Positions 4,824 through 42,267 of a DNA stretch of 64,000 nucleotides are shown here, one piece after another. The stretch comes from Eubacteriales bacterium. GTDB taxonomy: Bacteria > Bacillota > Clostridia > Oscillospirales > CAG-272. The stretch spans positions 25,293-89,292 of the forward strand of contig JBGVFH010000071.1 in assembly GCA_045120955.1 (NCBI GenBank), written 5' to 3'. Below the pieces are notes generated by a model that saw nothing but the letters and a program-made list of their open reading frames with translations, was not told where the DNA came from and made no database searches. A program made the translations under genes and the position numbers. The stretch's first letter is position 1, and each line of letters begins with the position of its first letter.

Positions 4824-5168
4824 GTTTGGTACCTCCGGGTTGTTTTTGTTTATTTATTTTTTAAAAAACTAACTGTTGGCTCTGATATGATTTTTGCAAT
4901 CTGCAGAGCAGGAAAAGCAAACAAAAAATGCAAATTTCTTTTCGCAGTTCAACTTTCCCCAAATGTCATTATACTATCGTTTTGTCAAATTTGCAAGATG
5001 TTTTTTTGAAAAATTCAAACTTTAATAAAAATTTAACGAAATTTTCATAAAACAGCTCAGCAAAAATAAAAATATGTTCTTTTGTGAGAAATCATGCGAA
5101 AAAATTCTGCCCCCGCAAAAAAGAGCATCCCTGTCGTTTTGATAACAGAGATGCCCTGAAAATCCGTT

Positions 5169-35416: not shown

Positions 35417-35965
35417 GTGAATATTTTACCTGGTACTCTTATAGAAACCGGTAAACTGTCCGACGGGGATAGCCGAAAGATATTTGACAATATCTTTTCG
35501 TGCGGAGGACTTATGCTTTCTCAGGTATGCAACATGACAGGGCTTGAGCCTTATACGGTTCAAAACTGGGTAAAGCGCAGATATGTTACAAATCCCAGAG
35601 GACGAATGTACTCGCAAGATCAGTTTTCACGCATCGTACTGATAAATATGTTAAAGGAATCCTTGCATCTTGATATGATCGAGAGGCTGCTTTCCTATAT
35701 AAACGGGCATCTTGATGATAACAGCGATGATCTGATCACTGATTCAGAGCTTTATCATATGTTTGTGTCCTTGCTTGTAAAAATGGGTTCGCAATATGAT
35801 TGCACGCAGGCGCAGCGGATCTCAGAGGAAATAACGCAAAGCTACAGCGAGCCTGTCGCAGGCGCAAGAAAACGCCTCGTAAAGGTGCTTGTTATAATGG
35901 CGCAAACATATTTCTCGGCAGAGCTGAGACGCGGCGCTGAGATGCTGATGAACGAGCTTAGCTGA
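35417..35965 (+). CDS. hypothetical protein, possible DUF1836-like / MerR-like HTH protein (GTG start)
   Basis: GGAGG 9 nt upstream of GTG; HTH-like segment LSQVCNMTGLEPYTVQNWVKRRYV. Confidence 0.45.
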   Translation: MNILPGTLIETGKLSDGDSRKIFDNIFSCGGLMLSQVCNMTGLEPYTVQNWVKRRYVTNPRGRMYSQDQFSRIVLINMLKESLHLDMIERLLSYINGHLDDNSDDLITDSELYHMFVSLLVKMGSQYDCTQAQRISEEITQSYSEPVAGARKRLVKVLVIMAQTYFSAELRRGAEMLMNELS

Positions 35966-36001
35966 TTTGTTCCACTTATTGTATTATGGAGGTTGATATT
36001 T

Positions 36002-36652
36002 ATGCAGGCATGGTGGGATGCTCTTGACGTCTTGGGCAAAATATTTGCACTTATCGCTATTCCCTCGACGCTTATTTTAGTAGTGCAGACTATACTTATG
36101 TTTCTCGGACTCGGAGGTGACGGCGGAGCTGATGCCGTAGGGGAGGATATACCGTCAGAAATGCCGGATACTGATGTCCCCGGCGGAATTTTCGGAGATG
36201 ACGTACCGGGAGGAACCGATATTGACGGAGATGTTTCAGAGGAGCCGGGACTTAAGATATTGTCGTTTCGAACGATAGTAGCTTTCCTTGCGGTTTTTGG
36301 TTGGGTAGGCATTGAACTGCTCAAGCTCGGAGCGGGCAGCGCTATAGCTATTACGGTCGGAATTGCAGCGGGGATCATTATCATGGTAGTTATGGCTCTG
36401 CTGATAAGGGAGCTGTTTAAGCTGCAATCAAACGGAAACGTCGATATGAGAAACGCTGTCGGTGCATCGGGAACAGCCTATATTCCGATACCCGCCCAAA
36501 GAAGTGGAAAGGGAAAGGTTACCGTTACATTTCAAAACACATCTTGTGAATGTGATGCGGTAACGGACGAGAAGGAGGACATACCGTCATACAGCGAGGT
36601 GCTCGTAATAGGCATCAGCGGCAAGGATACTCTCGTAGTTAAGAAAAAATAA
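36002..36652 (+). CDS. NfeD-like membrane protein (short form; C-terminal OB-fold domain)
   Basis: N-terminal TM, acidic Pro/Gly/Asp-rich linker, second TM pair, C-terminal beta domain (GKGKVTVTF...VLVIGISGKDTLVVKK); lies upstream of the flotillin gene. Confidence 0.6.
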   Translation: MQAWWDALDVLGKIFALIAIPSTLILVVQTILMFLGLGGDGGADAVGEDIPSEMPDTDVPGGIFGDDVPGGTDIDGDVSEEPGLKILSFRTIVAFLAVFGWVGIELLKLGAGSAIAITVGIAAGIIIMVVMALLIRELFKLQSNGNVDMRNAVGASGTAYIPIPAQRSGKGKVTVTFQNTSCECDAVTDEKEDIPSYSEVLVIGISGKDTLVVKKK

Positions 36653-36675
36653 AGAGCACGGGAGTGGATTTGCAA

Positions 36676-37305
36676 ATGACAGAAGAAAAATACAAAGTAT
36701 CGGATTTTATTTATGATTCGATGAAAAGCCTCAGACCGTATCTGCTGTTTAATGCGGCGGGCTATGTTGCATATGCGTTTACCGTCGGTCATATCATGTT
36801 GGATGAACAAGTATCGGTTGAAGCAAAAAACAGATATTTGTGCTTTTATTCCGCCGCTATGTTAGCTGCATTTTTGGCTGTTTTGTGCAGTCTTGCAAAG
36901 AATAATATAGCTCGGAAAACTGCTCTGATAAAAGCGTCAAGAGCGGATGATTTTGATGCAAAAGCGTATTATAAGAATACGGTCATAAGAAATATCTTAC
37001 CGCTTTTTTGCGCAGGAATAGTTATACTTTTGCCATTTGCGATATTTTATATGCGTTGCGGCTACGGATATGAAAATTCGCTTGGAATTGAGAGGCTGTT
37101 TGCGGCAAATATGCTCTTTATGATACCGCTCGGCGGTATTTTGGGAGTGATAGTGCAAAACATTCTTTTCTCGGGTGTGTATTCTCTGTATCTGTATAAA
37201 CTGCAATGCCGTGAGCTTGCCGACAGAATGTGGCTCAAGGATGCGCCAAAGCAGGAAAAGGTCGAGCTTAAGCCGCTGAAAAAGGATAATTACAAAAATT
37301 ATTAA
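36676..37305 (+). CDS. hypothetical 4-TM membrane protein inserted between NfeD-like and flotillin genes (alt GTG start 36664)
   Basis: Four hydrophobic helices; no recognisable motif. Confidence 0.45.
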   Translation: MTEEKYKVSDFIYDSMKSLRPYLLFNAAGYVAYAFTVGHIMLDEQVSVEAKNRYLCFYSAAMLAAFLAVLCSLAKNNIARKTALIKASRADDFDAKAYYKNTVIRNILPLFCAGIVILLPFAIFYMRCGYGYENSLGIERLFAANMLFMIPLGGILGVIVQNILFSGVYSLYLYKLQCRELADRMWLKDAPKQEKVELKPLKKDNYKNY

Positions 37306-37350
37306 AAGATTTTTTAATAATATATTAGGACATCAAAGGAGGAAATTGTT

Positions 37351-38775
37351 ATGGGTCCAATTATTATTTCATGTGTAGTCGCACTTGTCATCTTGATGAT
37401 AATCATTTGGTTTTTTGCGCACTACAAACGCTGTCCTTCCGATAAGGTAATGGTTATTTACGGTAATATCGGTAAGAACAAAGACGGCACGAACAGAAGT
37501 GCAAAATGTATTCACGGCGGAGCTACGTTCATCTGGCCCGTGGTCCAGTCTTATGCATTCCTTGATCTTACACCTATATCCATTCAGGTCGATCTGAGAA
37601 ATGCACTTTCACGCCAAAACATTCGTATTGATGTACCGTCCCGCTTTACCGTAGGTATCTCAACTGAGCAGGGAATCATGCAAAATGCCGCTGAACGGCT
37701 GCTCGGACTTAAGCTCTCCGAAATTCAGGAGCTTTCAAAGGATATCATCTTCGGTCAGCTTCGACTTATCATAGCAACGATGGATATCGAAGAGATAAAC
37801 ACAGACAGAGACAAGTTCCTAGTAGCTGTCAGCCGTAATGTTGAGACAGAACTGAAAAAGATCGGTCTTCGCCTCATCAACGTAAACGTAACCGATATTA
37901 CGGATGAATCGGGATATATTACAGCCCTCGGTAAAGAGGCAGCGGCTAAGGCTATCAACGATGCAAAAAAGAGCGTTGCAGAAAAGGACCGTGACGGTTC
38001 GGTAGGTGAGGCGCAGGCACGCATGGATCAGCGTATCAAGGTGTCTGAGGCTGACTCCGTAGCTATCAAGGGTGAAAACGAAGCAAAAATGCAGATCGCA
38101 ATGTCAGAGGCAGCACTTCGTGAGAAGGAAGCAGAGGCTATGAGAATTGCAACATCTGCAGAAAAGATACAGGCGGCTCGTGCCCTTGAAGAGGCGTATG
38201 CCGCAGAAAAAGAAGCAGAGGATGCAAGACGCACCAAGGAACAGGCAACTCTTGAGGCAGACGTTATCGTAAAAGCAGAGATAAGAAAGCGTGAGCTCGA
38301 GCTTGCTGCAGAGGCAGAGGCAGAGCAGATAAGACGCAAGGCACAGGGTGAGGCTGATGCTGTATATGCAAAAATGGTGGCTGAGGCGAAAGGTATCGAG
38401 GAGATGCTGCGCAAGCAGGCTGCAGGTTTTGCGGAAATAGTGCAGAGTGCAGGAGGAGATCCGAATGCCGCACTCAAGCTCATGATAGCAGATAAGCTGG
38501 AAGTGCTCATGCGTGTTCAGGTGGATGCTATCAAGAACATAAAGATAGACAAGGTTACTGTCTGGGATAAGGGAACTGGTGCTGACGGTAAAAACTCGAC
38601 AGCAGACTTTATCTCGGGACTTATGAAGAGCGTCCCCCCGCTTGATGAGGTGTTCGGCATGGCAGGACTTTCTCTTCCCGAAATGCTCGGAAAGAAGCAG
38701 GAAGAGCAGGTAGAAGAGCCAAAGTCAGATGCTCCCATCGAAACCACAGCGTCGTCAGAGACAGAGGAAAACTAA
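37351..38775 (+). CDS. flotillin-like SPFH/band-7 protein (FloT/YuaG-type)
   Basis: N-terminal TM, SPFH domain, long Ala/Glu-rich coiled-coil flotillin repeats, C-terminal domain. Confidence 0.85.
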   Translation: MGPIIISCVVALVILMIIIWFFAHYKRCPSDKVMVIYGNIGKNKDGTNRSAKCIHGGATFIWPVVQSYAFLDLTPISIQVDLRNALSRQNIRIDVPSRFTVGISTEQGIMQNAAERLLGLKLSEIQELSKDIIFGQLRLIIATMDIEEINTDRDKFLVAVSRNVETELKKIGLRLINVNVTDITDESGYITALGKEAAAKAINDAKKSVAEKDRDGSVGEAQARMDQRIKVSEADSVAIKGENEAKMQIAMSEAALREKEAEAMRIATSAEKIQAARALEEAYAAEKEAEDARRTKEQATLEADVIVKAEIRKRELELAAEAEAEQIRRKAQGEADAVYAKMVAEAKGIEEMLRKQAAGFAEIVQSAGGDPNAALKLMIADKLEVLMRVQVDAIKNIKIDKVTVWDKGTGADGKNSTADFISGLMKSVPPLDEVFGMAGLSLPEMLGKKQEEQVEEPKSDAPIETTASSETEEN

Positions 38776-38790
38776 ACAACTAAACGCAGT

Positions 38791-38830
38791 TTATCCGATG
38801 CAGGTATGCTCCATATTCTGCATCGGATAA
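38791..38830 (+). terminator. strong stem-loop after flotillin gene (possible terminator or processing site; weak U-tract)
   Basis: 13-bp perfect stem ttatccgatgcag/ctgcatcggataa. Confidence 0.4.
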
Positions 38831-38852
38831 AAATTATGAGGAGAGCAGCGTC

Positions 38853-40034
38853 GTGAACAGATCGTTGAAGATACTTTTGAATGTAACGGAATGTATAGCT
38901 TCCACTGTGATATATATATTTATTACAGCTTTTTTGTACGCACTTAAACCTACAGAGGAGGCGGCATCAGATACATACCGCTTTAATATTTCACCGTATC
39001 TGAGCTTTTTGATAACGTTTTTTGCACTTTGTTCGCTTGTTCGTTTCTCATTTCTCTTTGACAAAGAAATGAAAGAAAAATTCGCCTCGGACGGTGACGG
39101 ACTTTATACATACCGTGAGCATTTTCGTTTTTTGCTCGGTTTTGAAAAAACATGGATAGGACTTGTGTTTTCTGCTGTATTGTATTTGTGCTTGCCGCTT
39201 GAAATTTTGAGTATTCCGTTGTTTTACGGGACAGAACCAAGCATAGTTATCAAGCTCGCACTCTTTCCCCTTTATATGTGTATTGTCTTTGCCGTGCTGT
39301 TTTGGTCGTCTCGCTCTGCTGCACAATTCTGGTATGATGATTCTCGGCGTATAAAAACAAAAAAATTTTATACCGCTTCCAACCGTATCCGTAAGACCGT
39401 TATGCTGATAATTTCATATTCTGTCGGCGGCGCATTGTTTGTGTATCTGGGGCACAGGGTTAGTCTCGCAGTAATGACAAATTCTTATTTGATATCAAGA
39501 AAAGCTATTTGGGCTGTGTTACTTTTCATAGTATTTATAGTAGTTATTCCCGCACTTTACCGTCAGACAGGCTCTATACTGAAGCGAAAGAAATTTATAA
39601 AGAATTTGAAAAAAGTATGTGCGGAGCACCGTTGCTCGCTCTCAGAGATAAAGCGTCCGTACCGCTCGCTTTTTAAGCTGACTCACGGTTATGACTTCGA
39701 CTTTGAACTAAACGGCACAAAATATGCGTGCAAGCTTCTGTACACCAAACACCGCCTGCGTCCGATCACTTTTTTTGAGAACGGAATGGCGGCACATGAA
39801 AACATCATAAAAGTAAAAAAGACAGAGCTGTTTCGAGTCAGATCGTGGTTTGAATACGGCTTTGATGCGGATGCGAAAAAGCTTTTGATAATCAATCCCA
39901 TCCCCAAGACCGTGAACGTGAGCGAAAACGGAAAGACAGCCCTTATCGACAATGGCGACAGAGTAGGCGAATACAAGATCTACTCAGCTACTGCACTTGT
40001 CAACGCCATCGACAGAAATACACTCGAGAGATAA
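38853..40034 (+). CDS. hypothetical 6-TM membrane protein with about 150-aa C-terminal soluble domain ending in repeat module X (GTG start)
   Basis: GGAGAG RBS 9 nt before GTG; six TM helices; the C-terminal 47 aa are encoded by a 131-nt segment about 98% identical to 41318..41448. Confidence 0.6.
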   Translation: MNRSLKILLNVTECIASTVIYIFITAFLYALKPTEEAASDTYRFNISPYLSFLITFFALCSLVRFSFLFDKEMKEKFASDGDGLYTYREHFRFLLGFEKTWIGLVFSAVLYLCLPLEILSIPLFYGTEPSIVIKLALFPLYMCIVFAVLFWSSRSAAQFWYDDSRRIKTKKFYTASNRIRKTVMLIISYSVGGALFVYLGHRVSLAVMTNSYLISRKAIWAVLLFIVFIVVIPALYRQTGSILKRKKFIKNLKKVCAEHRCSLSEIKRPYRSLFKLTHGYDFDFELNGTKYACKLLYTKHRLRPITFFENGMAAHENIIKVKKTELFRVRSWFEYGFDADAKKLLIINPIPKTVNVSENGKTALIDNGDRVGEYKIYSATALVNAIDRNTLER

Positions 40035-40079
40035 TGACAGGAGACATGAGACAATGAACGAAAAAAAGACGAAAGAGAA

Positions 40080-40322
40080 GTGCTGACATACGATTACGTC
40101 ACGGCTTATTTGCGAAGAAAAGTAAAAGAAGAAATTGTCTCAGTAATAATTGCGTCTGTGGCGGCTGTGTTTTGCTTTGCTTTTACTTTTATTGTCGGGA
40201 CTATCATTATATCGCGAGAACCTACTATCGTTTCGGTTTTTTATAGTATTTTGTTTATTGTTATACTCAGGATGTATTGCCTTATGCTATATAAAGCTAT
40301 GGATACCTATCTGCAAAAATGA
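40080..40322 (+). CDS. small 2-TM membrane protein (GTG start; an A7 run just upstream could extend the ORF to the ATG at 40054 by a +1A slip)
   Basis: 80 aa, two hydrophobic helices; A7 homopolymer at 40061..40067 separates it from an in-phase ATG plus RBS. Confidence 0.45.
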   Translation: MLTYDYVTAYLRRKVKEEIVSVIIASVAAVFCFAFTFIVGTIIISREPTIVSVFYSILFIVILRMYCLMLYKAMDTYLQK

Positions 40323-40596
40323 TCATGAACCGTGACGGATATTTTAAGGTTATAGAGGATACCGTAGTGCAAATAGGACCGAGCGAGCGCACAGGAAGAT
40401 ACAACCGGATATATCCGATATATTTTAAGGAAAACGGAAAAGCCATATGCAATACACAAAGATGGTATAAATATCTCTCTTAGGAAAGCAAGTGCATTCT
40501 TATTGTGTACGATAAAGATTACTATGCATTTAAATGTAATATTGTAGCGGTGTATCCGTCGATTATGTACAGATACGAACAATAAAGGAGAAGCTT

Positions 40597-41187
40597 ATGT
40601 CCGAGTACAGAATATCAAACTCAATGTACAAAAGAATCAAGGAGAGAAAAATCAGGCTCTACCTCTGGCTTGGAGTATGTGCAGTTATCGAGATCTTTAT
40701 TATTCTCTTGTGTATATATTGCGGCAGAGACGGAATGATTCTTTGCTGTCTGCTTGAGCCTGTATTTCTGTATCTTGTGTGGCGTTATCTCCGTCATAAT
40801 ATCAGAACCTTGTTTTTAAAGAATAAAACTGGTGTGCTCGAGAGGAAAATTTCCGATCGATGTGTCAACAGAAAGGGTGTTATCTCGGGTAACGCTTACG
40901 GTGGATGGAAAAGGGAAGTTGAGTATCTGCTAATTATAAGAACAGATAATAAAGAATACAGAATAGAGCTTCCCACAAAGGATTCATACCTTGCCTACAA
41001 CGAGGGAGATGTGGTGCTATTTGCAGAATTTATGCCTTATCCTATCGTTACGAGCAGGACTCCATCACTGGCTGTGTGCCCTCAGTGCGCATCCCTTCTT
41101 CACTACGAGGACGGCGCGTGTCACAGGTGCGGTCTTGAGGATATATATCCCGATTTTTGCAAAACTCCGAAATGGGAGAGAAAGTGA
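40597..41187 (+). CDS. hypothetical membrane protein with C-terminal zinc ribbon
   Basis: Two N-terminal TM helices, beta-rich middle domain, CPQC...CHRC zinc-ribbon motif; good RBS (aaaggagaag). Confidence 0.55.
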   Translation: MSEYRISNSMYKRIKERKIRLYLWLGVCAVIEIFIILLCIYCGRDGMILCCLLEPVFLYLVWRYLRHNIRTLFLKNKTGVLERKISDRCVNRKGVISGNAYGGWKREVEYLLIIRTDNKEYRIELPTKDSYLAYNEGDVVLFAEFMPYPIVTSRTPSLAVCPQCASLLHYEDGACHRCGLEDIYPDFCKTPKWERK

Positions 41188-41196
41188 GGAAATAAA

Positions 41197-41469
41197 TTGA
41201 AATATCAAACAAGAGAACCCCTGGCGAGAAAGAACATTTACAATGAACTCGTACATGGATTTAATTTTGATATTGCGGGTGGTTGTATTACATCGATTGT
41301 TATCTCAGCTATGATGATTTTGATAATCAATCCCATCCCCAAGACCGTGAACGTGAGCGAAAATGGAAAGACAGCCCTTATCGACAATGGCGACAGAGTA
41401 GGCGAATACAAGATCTACTCAGCTACCGCACTTGTCAACGCCATCGACCGCAACTGCCTCGACAGATAG
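41197..41469 (+). CDS. small protein carrying repeat module X at its C-terminus (TTG start, translationally coupled to upstream gene)
   Basis: gaggaa RBS overlaps the upstream stop; C-terminal 47 aa near-identical to the C-terminus of the 38853..40034 product. Confidence 0.45.
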   Translation: MKYQTREPLARKNIYNELVHGFNFDIAGGCITSIVISAMMILIINPIPKTVNVSENGKTALIDNGDRVGEYKIYSATALVNAIDRNCLDR

Positions 41470-41533
41470 TCGGTACAAGGCACAAAACGATGTCTGCCAC
41501 ATCTATCCCATTATTCATCAAAGGAGAAACACC

Positions 41534-41945
41534 ATGGTATGTTCCAAATGTGGAAAAATCGTATCTGATGTAACCGTTTTTTGCCCGAGCTGCGGCGAGT
41601 CTATCGACCGTAAAGCGCAACACGATGGGCTTGTAGTACATTCGGACGATTATTATCAAGTCAAAGACTACCAAAAAAGAGCAAAGTACGTTATGCTCTT
41701 TAATAATATCGTCATTTTTATGCGGCATGATATGGAGCTTGATATTCTCGCTTGGTGCAATATCAAAAGCGAATTCCGCAATAGAGCCTGAGATATCCGA
41801 GATGCGTCCGCCGTCTGAGAACGAGGAGATAGAAAAAGCAAGCTCAAAGATCAAAGCGGGAAAAATGATAGCTAAAATATCGGTCGGAGTCTTCATATTC
41901 AATTTCGTCTTAGGCATTGTTCTCGCTAAGCTGTTATATCTCTGA
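41534..41945 (+). pseudogene. zinc-ribbon plus TM membrane protein, apparently frameshifted at a T5 run (41715..41719); intact reading would be about 137 aa
   Basis: aggag RBS 8 nt before ATG 41534; N-terminal CxxC...CxxC zinc ribbon (ORF 41534..41791). The +1 frame (open from 41703 to 41945) continues as a TM helix; removing one T gives ...YVMLFNNIVILCGMIWSLIFSLGAI... Confidence 0.45.
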
Positions 41946-42108
41946 CAGTTACAGCAAATGTGATAGAAAAAGTAGAGGGCAAAGGTAAAGATATGCACCG
42001 ATAGCGTATCCGCAATGACGCCTATCGAAGATGCTTTCAAACTCAGCTTCACCGATGGGTTGCTTTCACTGAGCATATTTCCAACAATTTTTTTGAAATT
42101 AAAAAAAT

Positions 42109-42153
42109 GCGAGAGAAAGCTTTTTTAAAAAAGTTTTTTCTCGCATTTTTGTT
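42109..42153. terminator. bidirectional rho-independent terminator between the small-gene cluster (+) and malQ (-)
   Basis: gcgagagaaag/ttttttctcgc stem with T-runs on both strands. Confidence 0.6.
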
Positions 42154-42222
42154 ATCGAATAGGTAATTGAACGGATCCTCGCTCGCCGTTATGCACAGCT
42201 TCTGTAACAGAAAAACAACGGT

Positions 42223-42267
42223 AGGCGGGAGGATGGAGGCGGGCACTGCCCGCTTTGTTATTTTTGG
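42223..42267 (+). repeat. short intergenic repeat copy 1 (aggcgggagga..gcgggcactgcccgc hairpin plus T-tract)
   Basis: About 34-nt motif shared (about 31/34 identical) with 61584..61617; GC hairpin gcgggc-act-gcccgc followed by tttgttattttt. Confidence 0.6.

What the first reader, a model, noticed from the sequence alone, without database searches (positions are those of the whole stretch)
39883..41448. The repeat copies differ only by synonymous changes, and divergence rises abruptly at the repeat's 3' edge
Inside the 131-nt block the only differences are aac/aat and act/acc. Immediately after it the final codons differ (aga/cgc, aat/aac, aca/tgc, gag/gac, taa/tag) but largely keep the amino acids. 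This is the signature of an older duplication whose core was recently homogenised by gene conversion or recombination. It implies that both proteins are expressed and under selection.
Basis: seen in the sequence. Interest (0 to 1): 0.55.

Follow-up and report, generated by a model that had tools for sequence, protein, structure and literature searches.

The report
Gene end copied into downstream fragment
The last 150 bases of a membrane-protein gene recur 1.4 kb downstream inside a short patchwork reading frame; the pattern is a real scar of recombination between the two copies, most strains have collapsed them into one gene, and nothing shows that the short copy is a selected protein.

Summary
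Bases 39883-40013 and 41318-41448 differ at 2 of 131 positions, both synonymous. The next 21 bases differ at 8, and that jump is significant.

Copy A is the 3' end of a 393-aa membrane protein (ORF A, next to a flotillin gene). It belongs to a widespread family with no Pfam model. Copy B ends a 90-codon chimeric ORF. Its first 41 codons probably come from the 5' end of an unrelated neighbouring gene. Its last 49 codons cover only a third of the family's C-terminal domain.

Tail A (NTLER) is the form found in all close relatives. Tail B (NCLDR) and the zinc-ribbon gene after it match the end of the full-length gene in the species' common haplotype. Thirteen contigs carry that haplotype, all with one copy and without the 1,435-bp unit. 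So the core groups A with B, while the tail groups B with the single-copy gene. That is a recombination mosaic.

I read it as A's core copied into B (gene conversion in the broad sense). The single-copy form has the architecture that A x B deletion would give.

This is an ordinary recombination scar of modest interest.

The parts
38853..40034 (+). ORF A: a 393-aa protein with an N-terminal helical membrane part (about residues 1-258) and a conserved beta-rich C-terminal domain (about 282-393). It is a member of a large uncharacterised family.
   Evidence: ORF list. Homologues of about 400 aa. 712 cluster representatives at E<=1e-3. No Pfam, NCBIfam or PADLOC hit. AF2 models.
39883..40013 (+). 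Copy A of the repeat core (131 nt), encoding LIINPIPK...NAID, the last strands and the final helix of the C-terminal domain.
40014..40034 (+). Tail A (RNTLER plus TAA), the Thr-type tail found in all close relatives.
   Evidence: Tail A is 76-81% identical in DNA to the tails of L003, L004, L012 and L013, and 62% identical to tail B.
40059..40585 (+). Disrupted homologue of the 220-aa membrane protein that follows ORF A in L003. It is split across two frames and has an in-frame TAG at 40481-40483.
   Evidence: tblastn of the L003 220-aa protein against the window. The sequence is identical in L010.
40597..41187 (+). 196-aa membrane protein with a C-terminal CxxC...CxxC motif. It is a conserved neighbour of ORF A in related species.
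   Evidence: Homologues lie downstream of the ORF A homologue in L003, L004, L012 and L013-15.
41197..41469 (+). ORF B: a 90-codon chimeric ORF with a TTG start. A GAGGA motif at 41186-41190 sits 6 nt upstream of the start.
   Evidence: The identical 90-aa product is on record in NCBI (P0015), and a variant P0017 is in ENA.
41197..41317 (+). The 5' part of ORF B. It is probably a remnant of the 5' end of the gene that follows the 196-aa homologue in L012 ('gene D').
   Evidence: A 39-aa ungapped alignment to the N-terminus of the L012 191-aa protein scores 58, against a shuffle mean of 23.5 (sd 4.0); 0 of 2000 shuffles reach it. There is no match to the ORF A family profile (-0.8 bits).
41318..41448 (+). 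Copy B of the repeat core (131 nt), with 2 differences from copy A.
   Evidence: Spanned by the independent contig L016.
41449..41469 (+). Tail B (RNCLDR plus TAG), the Cys-type tail. It is orthologous to the tail of the full-length gene in the single-copy haplotype.
   Evidence: Three-way alignment. 81% identical to the L001 tail and 62% to tail A. Cys is the commonest residue at this position across the family, in 89 of 171 proteins.
41534..41945 (+). Gene for a zinc-ribbon protein with two membrane helices, broken here by the loss of 11 nt after 41701. Its neighbourhood defines the context of tail B.
   Evidence: A homologue directly follows the Cys-tailed family gene in L005.
39764..41519 (.). 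The segment in which the two-copy haplotype (H2, this window) and the single-copy haplotype (H1) differ by about 15% plus the 1.4-kb indel. The flanks on both sides are about 99.8% identical.
   Evidence: Mismatch maps against L001 and 12 further H1 loci show the same edges in all of them. dS is 0 in the gene body and 0.54-0.65 in the segment.
42105..42148 (+). The first terminator-like hairpin downstream of ORF A. ORF A through the zinc-ribbon gene therefore look like one transcription unit.

Best explanation
Copy B is not a second gene. It is a 3' gene fragment stranded downstream of the intact gene by an old rearrangement. That rearrangement fused the first 41 codons of a neighbouring gene, in frame, to the last 49 codons of an ORF A-type gene.

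The fragment's tail and the zinc-ribbon gene after it come from a Cys-tailed version of the gene. Tail A and the two genes after it (the 220-aa and 196-aa homologues) are the native arrangement of this clade.

The 131-nt core of B was later overwritten by non-reciprocal copying from A. This is ectopic gene conversion, possibly within the same repair event that created the 5' junction. The copied tract resolved inside the most conserved part of the module, just before codon Arg-388. That gives a near-identical core, a sharp 3' step into old divergence, and a 5' edge that coincides with the rearrangement junction.

The two direct repeats are substrates for RecA-type recombination. A crossover between them removes the 1,435-bp unit and leaves a full-length gene carrying tail B directly upstream of the zinc-ribbon gene. 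That is the architecture of the common haplotype of this species.

Shown: the anatomy, the conflicting trees, the chimeric make-up of ORF B, and the haplotype polymorphism. Inferred: the direction of copying (A to B), the order of events, and the origin of the single-copy form by deletion.
For: - The step in divergence is significant.
- Trees conflict. Core: A and B are 98.5% identical, and both are 85% identical to the single-copy allele. Tail plus downstream spacer: B aligns with the single-copy allele, while A's downstream sequence is unrelated.
- dS between A and B in the core is 0.07, against 0.65 between either copy and the single-copy allele. Yet tail B and its flank are shared by both haplotypes, so B's context predates the split while the core identity is younger.
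- A compared with the single-copy allele shows no jump in divergence at 39883 (12.6% upstream, 15.3% in the core). A's core is therefore contiguous with its own gene, which points to A as the donor.
- The order ORF A (Thr tail), then a 170-220-aa membrane protein, then a 190-201-aa zinc-ribbon protein is conserved in L003, L004 and L013-15. L012 has ORF A, then the 201-aa zinc-ribbon protein, then the 191-aa 'gene D'. Window 40036-41187 is therefore native, not an insertion.
- ORF B's N-terminus matches the gene that follows the 196-aa homologue in L012.
- All 13 single-copy loci have ORF A body, core, Cys tail, then the zinc-ribbon gene.
- The C-terminal domain folds as one compact unit (pLDDT 90), and the module contributes its last four strands and final helix.
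- No integrase is present in the interval, and there is no plasmid or phage match.
Against: - Neither haplotype is the direct parent of the other. They differ by about 15% across 39764-41519, on both sides of the indel. The deletion origin of the single-copy form is therefore inferred from architecture only.
- Identity runs right up to the 5' junction with no leftover old mismatches. That fits a single event that created both the junction and the copy slightly better than a later, separate conversion.
- No two-copy locus with an unconverted B was found in any other lineage, so concerted evolution could not be demonstrated across lineages.
- The match between ORF B's N-terminus and gene D rests on a single protein that has no other relatives.
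Confidence: 0.6

Rival explanations
1. Single duplicative insertion (cassette displacement) with no later conversion. The resident gene was single-copy with tail B, followed by the zinc-ribbon gene. DNA from a Thr-tailed relative (tail A, the 220 gene, the 196 gene and the start of gene D) entered by one homologous crossover at the conserved 3' end of the core and one illegitimate join. This duplicated the resident core, so A and B were identical from the start.
For: The single-copy, Cys-tailed form is by far the commoner haplotype. Identity begins exactly at the illegitimate junction. The 3' step lies in the most conserved coding stretch, a natural place for a crossover. A Cys tail followed by a zinc-ribbon gene also occurs in the distant relative L005.
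Against: The block said to be inserted is the native syntenic neighbour of ORF A in every close species. The present single-copy allele has a core 15% different from B, so it is not the pre-insertion parent. The model needs an unusual duplicative topology, through a sister chromosome or a circular intermediate.
Confidence: 0.22
2. ORF A and ORF B are two expressed paralogous proteins. Both are under purifying selection, and their shared module is kept identical by gene conversion.
For: ORF B is open in three independent data sets and has a GAGGA motif 6 nt before its TTG start. It sits in an operon with no intervening terminator. The core differences are synonymous.
Against: ORF B holds only a third of a single compact domain and is a chimera. 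It is absent from 13 contigs of the same species and from all other species read. Only one substitution is assignable to B, and the additional variant is non-synonymous. Both neighbouring genes are broken in this genome. Conversion alone preserves the frame.
Confidence: 0.1
3. A programmed cassette switch comparable to Rhs or CdiA main-gene/orphan arrangements. The conserved core serves as the homology for swapping the gene's tail and its downstream partner genes (220/196 against the zinc-ribbon gene).
For: [quoted passage not shown] Both the fused and the unfused states exist in the population.
Against: Only six residues differ after the homology block. There is no toxin or immunity signature, no Rhs/YD or CdiA features, and no PADLOC hit. 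There is only one fragment, not an array. One partner gene is a pseudogene.
Confidence: 0.05
4. An assembly artefact. Two strain variants of one gene end were chained into a false tandem arrangement.
For: The source is probably a metagenome-assembled genome, and both haplotypes circulate in similar samples.
Against: L016 (k=141, longer than the core) links gene D', the core and tail B to the zinc-ribbon gene. L010 links the A-specific base, tail A and the insert to gene D' and the start of the core. These come from two other samples, at 98-100% identity. With those links, only the assembled order is consistent.
Confidence: 0.03

Closest known systems
Ectopic gene conversion (concerted evolution) between duplicated bacterial sequences, for example tufA/tufB in Salmonella (from my own knowledge, not checked here)
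   Same: A tract of near identity between two copies in one genome, bounded by an abrupt return to old divergence. The tract and its flank give conflicting trees.
   Different: One partner here is a 150-nt fragment inside a chimeric ORF, not a complete gene. Homology ends at a rearrangement junction on the 5' side. Concerted evolution across several lineages could not be shown.
Rhs main gene plus orphan rhs-CT fragment in Salmonella Typhimurium (PMC3967940)
   Same: A full-length gene is followed by a 5'-truncated fragment that keeps a stretch of the conserved region. Recombination in that stretch deletes the interval and fuses the main gene to the fragment's end. The common haplotype here has the architecture such a fusion would give.
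   Different: There is no variable toxin domain (only 6 residues differ), no immunity gene and no Rhs repeats. The shared stretch is 131 nt rather than 522 bp. The protein is a multi-pass membrane protein next to a flotillin gene.
RecA-dependent deletion between short direct repeats
   Same: Two direct repeats 131 nt long and 98.5% identical flank a 1.3-kb interval. A population variant lacks one repeat unit plus the interval.
   Different: The deleted variant is not a simple derivative of this haplotype. It is about 15% diverged across the junction region, so a further allelic replacement is involved.
Homology-facilitated illegitimate recombination, i.e. one homologous plus one illegitimate join (from my own knowledge)
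   Same: One edge of the identical block lies in homologous sequence and the other is a junction with unrelated sequence.
   Different: That process normally replaces DNA rather than duplicating it. No donor sequence was identified.
Silent partial cassettes that donate sequence to an expressed gene (pilE/pilS type; from my own knowledge)
   Same: A promoter-distal partial copy of the 3' part of an expressed gene lies nearby, with non-reciprocal sequence transfer between them.
   Different: There is a single cassette with almost no sequence diversity, and the inferred transfer runs from the gene to the fragment. There is no sign of a variation system.

Membership tests
Ectopic gene conversion between a gene and a partial copy | Two homologous copies in the same genome | tested here: met
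   Repeat D1, 151 nt, spacing 1435. Only two copies in the window. Confirmed in two other samples.
Ectopic gene conversion between a gene and a partial copy | A near-identical tract bounded by an abrupt change to much higher divergence in flanks that are still homologous | tested here: inconclusive
   Met at the 3' edge: 2/131 against 8/21, p=1.3e-6, permutation p=5e-5. Not met at the 5' edge, where homology ends altogether at a junction.
Ectopic gene conversion between a gene and a partial copy | Conflicting trees for the tract and its flank when an orthologous sequence is added | tested here: met
   Core: A=B (98.5%), and both are 85% identical to the single-copy allele. Tail: B is 81% and A is 62% identical to that allele. 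Tail A is 76-81% identical to orthologues in other species.
Ectopic gene conversion between a gene and a partial copy | Copies within a genome more alike than orthologous copies between lineages that each carry both copies | not testable with these tools
   Only one lineage with both copies was found, in three near-identical samples.
Rhs/CdiA-type main gene with orphan C-terminal cassette | A downstream 5'-truncated fragment that retains part of the conserved region of the main gene | tested here: met
   Copy B has 131 nt of the conserved module and lacks the first 343 codons.
Rhs/CdiA-type main gene with orphan C-terminal cassette | A variable C-terminal toxin domain after the conserved region, with a cognate immunity gene next to it | tested here: not met
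   Only 6 residues follow the block. The downstream genes have no toxin, immunity or defence hits.
Rhs/CdiA-type main gene with orphan C-terminal cassette | Rhs/YD repeats or CdiA-type delivery domains in the main protein | tested here: not met
   No Pfam or NCBIfam hit. The model shows a helical membrane part and a small beta-rich domain.
Integrative element inserted into the 3' end of a gene with att duplication | An integrase or recombinase within the segment flanked by the repeats | tested here: not met
   The interval holds a broken membrane-protein gene, the 196-aa gene and the start of ORF B. No recombinase domain was found. No plasmid or phage match.
Integrative element inserted into the 3' end of a gene with att duplication | The segment is foreign, that is, absent from the same position in related species | tested here: not met
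   Related species carry homologues of the interval's genes directly after the ORF A homologue.
PD-(D/E)xK (restriction-endonuclease-like) fold, for the C-terminal domain that contains the module | Fold similarity to known members | tested here: inconclusive
   [not shown]
PD-(D/E)xK (restriction-endonuclease-like) fold, for the C-terminal domain that contains the module | A conserved acidic/Lys catalytic motif on the core strands | not tested
   The invariant residues are listed (Y-x-C-K, G-D, Y), but they were not mapped onto a catalytic site.

The most novel reading that the evidence does not exclude
The conserved 131-nt module could act as a built-in recombination handle. It would let strains switch the gene between two states. 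In one, the gene has a Thr tail and is followed by the 220/196 membrane-protein pair. In the other, it has a Cys tail and is followed by the zinc-ribbon membrane protein. That would be a main-gene/orphan cassette system in a non-toxin, flotillin-linked membrane-protein family. In this reading the 90-aa chimera is either the stored cassette or a small membrane-anchored competitor of ORF A's C-terminal domain.
Probability: 0.06. Interest if true: 0.55.

Novelty: new member of a known kind. Interest (0 to 1): 0.27.

Why it matters
The locus is a clean, well-bounded natural example of how a stranded gene fragment keeps exchanging sequence with its parent gene. It also shows how such a fragment can mediate a presence/absence polymorphism of two neighbouring genes within one gut-type Clostridia species. 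It is a useful caution too: an open, near-identical partial copy with only synonymous differences is not evidence of a selected protein. The wider value lies less in the repeat than in its host gene. That gene belongs to a large family of about 400-aa membrane proteins (at least 712 clusters at 50% identity). The family has no Pfam model, has a C-terminal domain with a weakly nuclease-like fold, and sits in a conserved cluster with a flotillin gene.

Tried and rejected
- ORF B's N-terminus as a decayed remnant of an ORF A-type gene. MAFFT paired HGFNFD with GYDFDF, but the family profile gives -0.8 bits. Rejected.
- The single-copy allele as a simple A x B deletion product of this haplotype, or as a crossover with a longer, unconverted B. 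Rejected, because tail B and the spacer also differ by about 20% and a 75-nt indel between the haplotypes, and divergence begins 119 nt upstream of the repeat.
- The 1.4-kb interval as a mobile insertion. Rejected on synteny and the lack of any recombinase.
- A JGI metagenome scan for further loci found nothing.
- A search for ORF B-like proteins found only the window's own product, one variant, and a fragment of the single-copy gene.
- 'Gene D' of L012 has no other relatives and is not significantly similar to the 220-aa protein.
- The first 98 nt of L011 match nothing else that was fetched.
- An early impression of two frameshifts in the 220-like gene was corrected to one frame change plus one in-frame stop.
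Full report
**1. The observation**

The window holds one two-copy direct repeat in this region, 39883-40033 and 41318-41468 (151 nt, 94% identity, spacing 1435). Codon by codon, the 131-nt core differs at two third positions, AAC/AAT at 39929/41364 and ACT/ACC at 39992/41427.

The remaining seven codons differ at eight bases: Arg AGA/CGC, Asn AAT/AAC, Thr ACA to Cys TGC, Glu GAG to Asp GAC, and stop TAA/TAG.

The change in divergence is significant. A Fisher test gives p=1.3e-6. A max-chi-square test places the breakpoint after 40013, with permutation p=5e-5.

**2. What the two copies belong to**

Copy A is the 3' end of ORF A (38853-40034, 393 aa). Copy B is the 3' end of ORF B (41197-41469, 90 codons, TTG start).

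ORF A has no Pfam, NCBIfam or PADLOC hit. It nevertheless belongs to a large family of proteins about 400 aa long. A word-indexed search found 14 relatives. A full HMMER scan with the family profile found 712 cluster representatives at E<=1e-3 and 325 at E<=1e-30.

The repeated module supplies the last four strands and the final helix of that domain, about one third of it. It is not a self-contained unit.

**3. ORF B is a chimera**

The first 41 residues of ORF B do not match the ORF A family profile (-0.8 bits).

They do align without gaps over 39 residues to the N-terminus of a 191-aa protein in L012. That protein's gene lies immediately after the homologue of the window's 196-aa gene, which is the same relative position. 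The alignment scores 58, against a shuffle mean of 23.5 and sd 4.0, and 0 of 2000 shuffles reach it.

ORF B is therefore most simply the 5' end of that neighbouring gene fused in frame to the last 49 codons of an ORF A-type gene.

This link rests on a single protein that has no other relatives, so I call it probable rather than shown.

**4. Related genomes**

*Other species (ORF A homologues 39-54% identical).* L003, L004 and L013-15 share one gene order: a DUF1836 protein, two unknown membrane proteins, a Band_7 flotillin, the ORF A homologue, a 170-220-aa membrane protein, and then a 190-201-aa membrane protein with a zinc-ribbon motif. L012 has the flotillin and the ORF A homologue followed by the 201-aa zinc-ribbon protein and then the 191-aa 'gene D'. 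Each locus has one module copy and a Thr-type tail (N-T-L-E/D-R).

Window 40036-41187 is therefore the native neighbourhood, not an insertion. In the window, the 220-aa homologue is broken by a frame change and an in-frame TAG.

*The same species, common haplotype (H1).* The closest relatives have flanks about 99.8% identical to the window. The haplotype was read in 13 contigs from ENA, Logan and NCBI. All 11 other protein variants in the 90%-identity cluster of ORF A carry its C-terminus.

H1 has a single full-length gene followed directly by the zinc-ribbon gene. The 220 and 196 genes and ORF B are absent. Its gene ends in RNCLDR, the tail of copy B. The spacer after it aligns with the spacer after copy B and not with the sequence after copy A.

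*The same species, two-copy haplotype (H2).* This was found in three independent data sets: the window, L010 and L016. L016 was assembled at k=141, longer than the core. It links the 196-aa gene, ORF B, copy B, tail B and the zinc-ribbon gene. This excludes the alternative resolution of the repeat, and with it a misassembly.

**5. The mosaic**

| Comparison | Result |
|---|---|
| Core, A vs B | 98.5% identical |
| Core, A or B vs H1 | 85% identical |
| Tail B vs H1 tail | 81% identical |
| Tail B vs tail A | 62% identical |
| Tail A vs tails in other species | 76-81% identical, although the cores are only 67-74% identical |
| dS, ORF A body vs H1 | 0 over 208 synonymous sites |
| dS, 39762-40013 vs H1 | 0.54-0.65, with dN/dS about 0.1 |
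| dS, A core vs B core | 0.07 |

H1 and H2 differ by about 15% between 39764 and 41519 and are almost identical outside that segment. The edges are the same in all 13 H1 loci. One of the two haplotypes was therefore brought in from a diverged lineage by homologous replacement, and neither is the direct parent of the other.

Tail B and its zinc-ribbon context occur in both haplotypes, so they are older than the split. The A-B core identity is much younger than the split.

Across 171 family members, the position that is Thr in tail A and Cys in tail B is Cys in 89, Val in 29 and Thr in 27. Thr is the state in all close relatives of ORF A. In L005, a Cys-tailed family gene is followed directly by a homologous zinc-ribbon gene.

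**6. Most likely mechanism**

B's core was copied non-reciprocally from A, which is ectopic gene conversion in the broad sense. The tract ended in the most conserved coding stretch, just before Arg-388. It started at, or ran up to, the junction with the foreign 5' part.

A is the likelier donor. Divergence between A and H1 shows no jump at 39883 (12.6% upstream, 15.3% in the core), so A's core is continuous with its own gene.

The two repeats should then be able to recombine. A crossover would delete 1,435 bp and give ORF A body, core, tail B and the zinc-ribbon gene. That is the architecture of H1.

I give this reading a confidence of 0.6.

The main rival, at 0.22, is a single duplicative event in which the Thr-tail block was inserted into a Cys-tailed single-copy gene and the resident core was duplicated. 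It explains the exact coincidence of identity with the 5' junction somewhat better. It conflicts with the native synteny of the block, and with the 15% difference between B and the present single-copy core.

**7. Selection and expression**

ORF B inherits a start region with a GAGGA motif 6 nt before its TTG. No terminator-like site lies between ORF A and 42105. It may well be transcribed and even translated.

Nothing indicates selection, however:
- Two synonymous differences arise by chance with P of about 0.05-0.11.
- With H1 as outgroup, the change at 39992 falls on A and only the change at 41364 falls on B.
- The only further B variant, in L016, is non-synonymous, K to N.
- The fragment lacks two thirds of its domain.
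- Most strains and all other species read lack it.
- The flanking 220-like gene and zinc-ribbon gene are both broken in this genome.

**8. Comparison with known systems**

The locus behaves like ectopic gene conversion combined with direct-repeat deletion.

Its topology is that of an Rhs main gene with an orphan fragment. In that system, recombination in a shared stretch (522 bp, 95% identical) fuses the main gene to the orphan (PMC3967940). The defining features of that system are absent here: there is no variable toxin domain, no immunity gene and no Rhs repeats.

It is not an integrative element either. No recombinase is present, the interval is native to the clade, and there is no plasmid or phage match.

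**9. Verdict**

This is a real and well-bounded recombination mosaic. It is correctly observed and partly correctly interpreted. It is an ordinary outcome of bacterial recombination, a new example of a known kind, and of modest interest (0.27).

Noticed in passing
[not shown]
   Followed up: partly
window 35417-41187; L001, L013, L017: A conserved gene cluster: DUF1836/MerR-like protein, two unknown membrane proteins (219 and 213 aa), a Band_7 flotillin, the ORF A family gene, then small membrane or zinc-ribbon proteins. The flotillin is 91% identical between species in which ORF A is only about 50% identical.
   Followed up: partly
window 40059-40585: The homologue of the 220-aa membrane protein that follows ORF A in L003 is disrupted here. 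Its N-terminal part is in one frame and the rest is in another, with an in-frame TAG at 40481-40483 and an internal gap of about 29 aa. The sequence is identical in the independent contig L010, so this is not a sequencing error.
   Followed up: yes
window 41534-41945 (site after 41701): The gene for the zinc-ribbon protein with two membrane helices is split into 85-aa and 72-aa ORFs by the loss of 11 nt (GCCGTAATAGG). The intact 140-aa version is present in L016 and in most single-copy loci. The broken version occurs in the window, L001, L002, L023 and L025, so the deletion is found on both haplotype backgrounds.
   Followed up: yes
window 39764 and 41519: Sharp edges of a segment about 15% diverged between the two haplotypes, embedded in flanks about 99.8% identical. 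The edges are the same in all 13 single-copy loci, which is the signature of a single allelic replacement from a diverged lineage. L016 has a further small patch of 6 mismatches at 41532-41566.
   Followed up: partly
L001 4931-5005 (spacer of the single-copy haplotype): The single-copy haplotype has 75 extra bases between the gene and the zinc-ribbon gene. They include a weak terminator-like hairpin (4947-4964 followed by a T run) that the window lacks.
   Followed up: partly
window 42098-42155 and 42236-42256: A 29-nt-arm inverted repeat with adjoining arms (86% complementary) and a second GC-rich hairpin, both followed by T runs. They are probably the terminators between the convergent + strand operon and the GH77 (4-alpha-glucanotransferase) gene on the - strand.
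   Followed up: no
L011 1-98: The first 98 nt of this 930-nt ENA contig match nothing else that was fetched, while the rest equals the single-copy haplotype. This is probably a chimeric contig end.
   Followed up: partly
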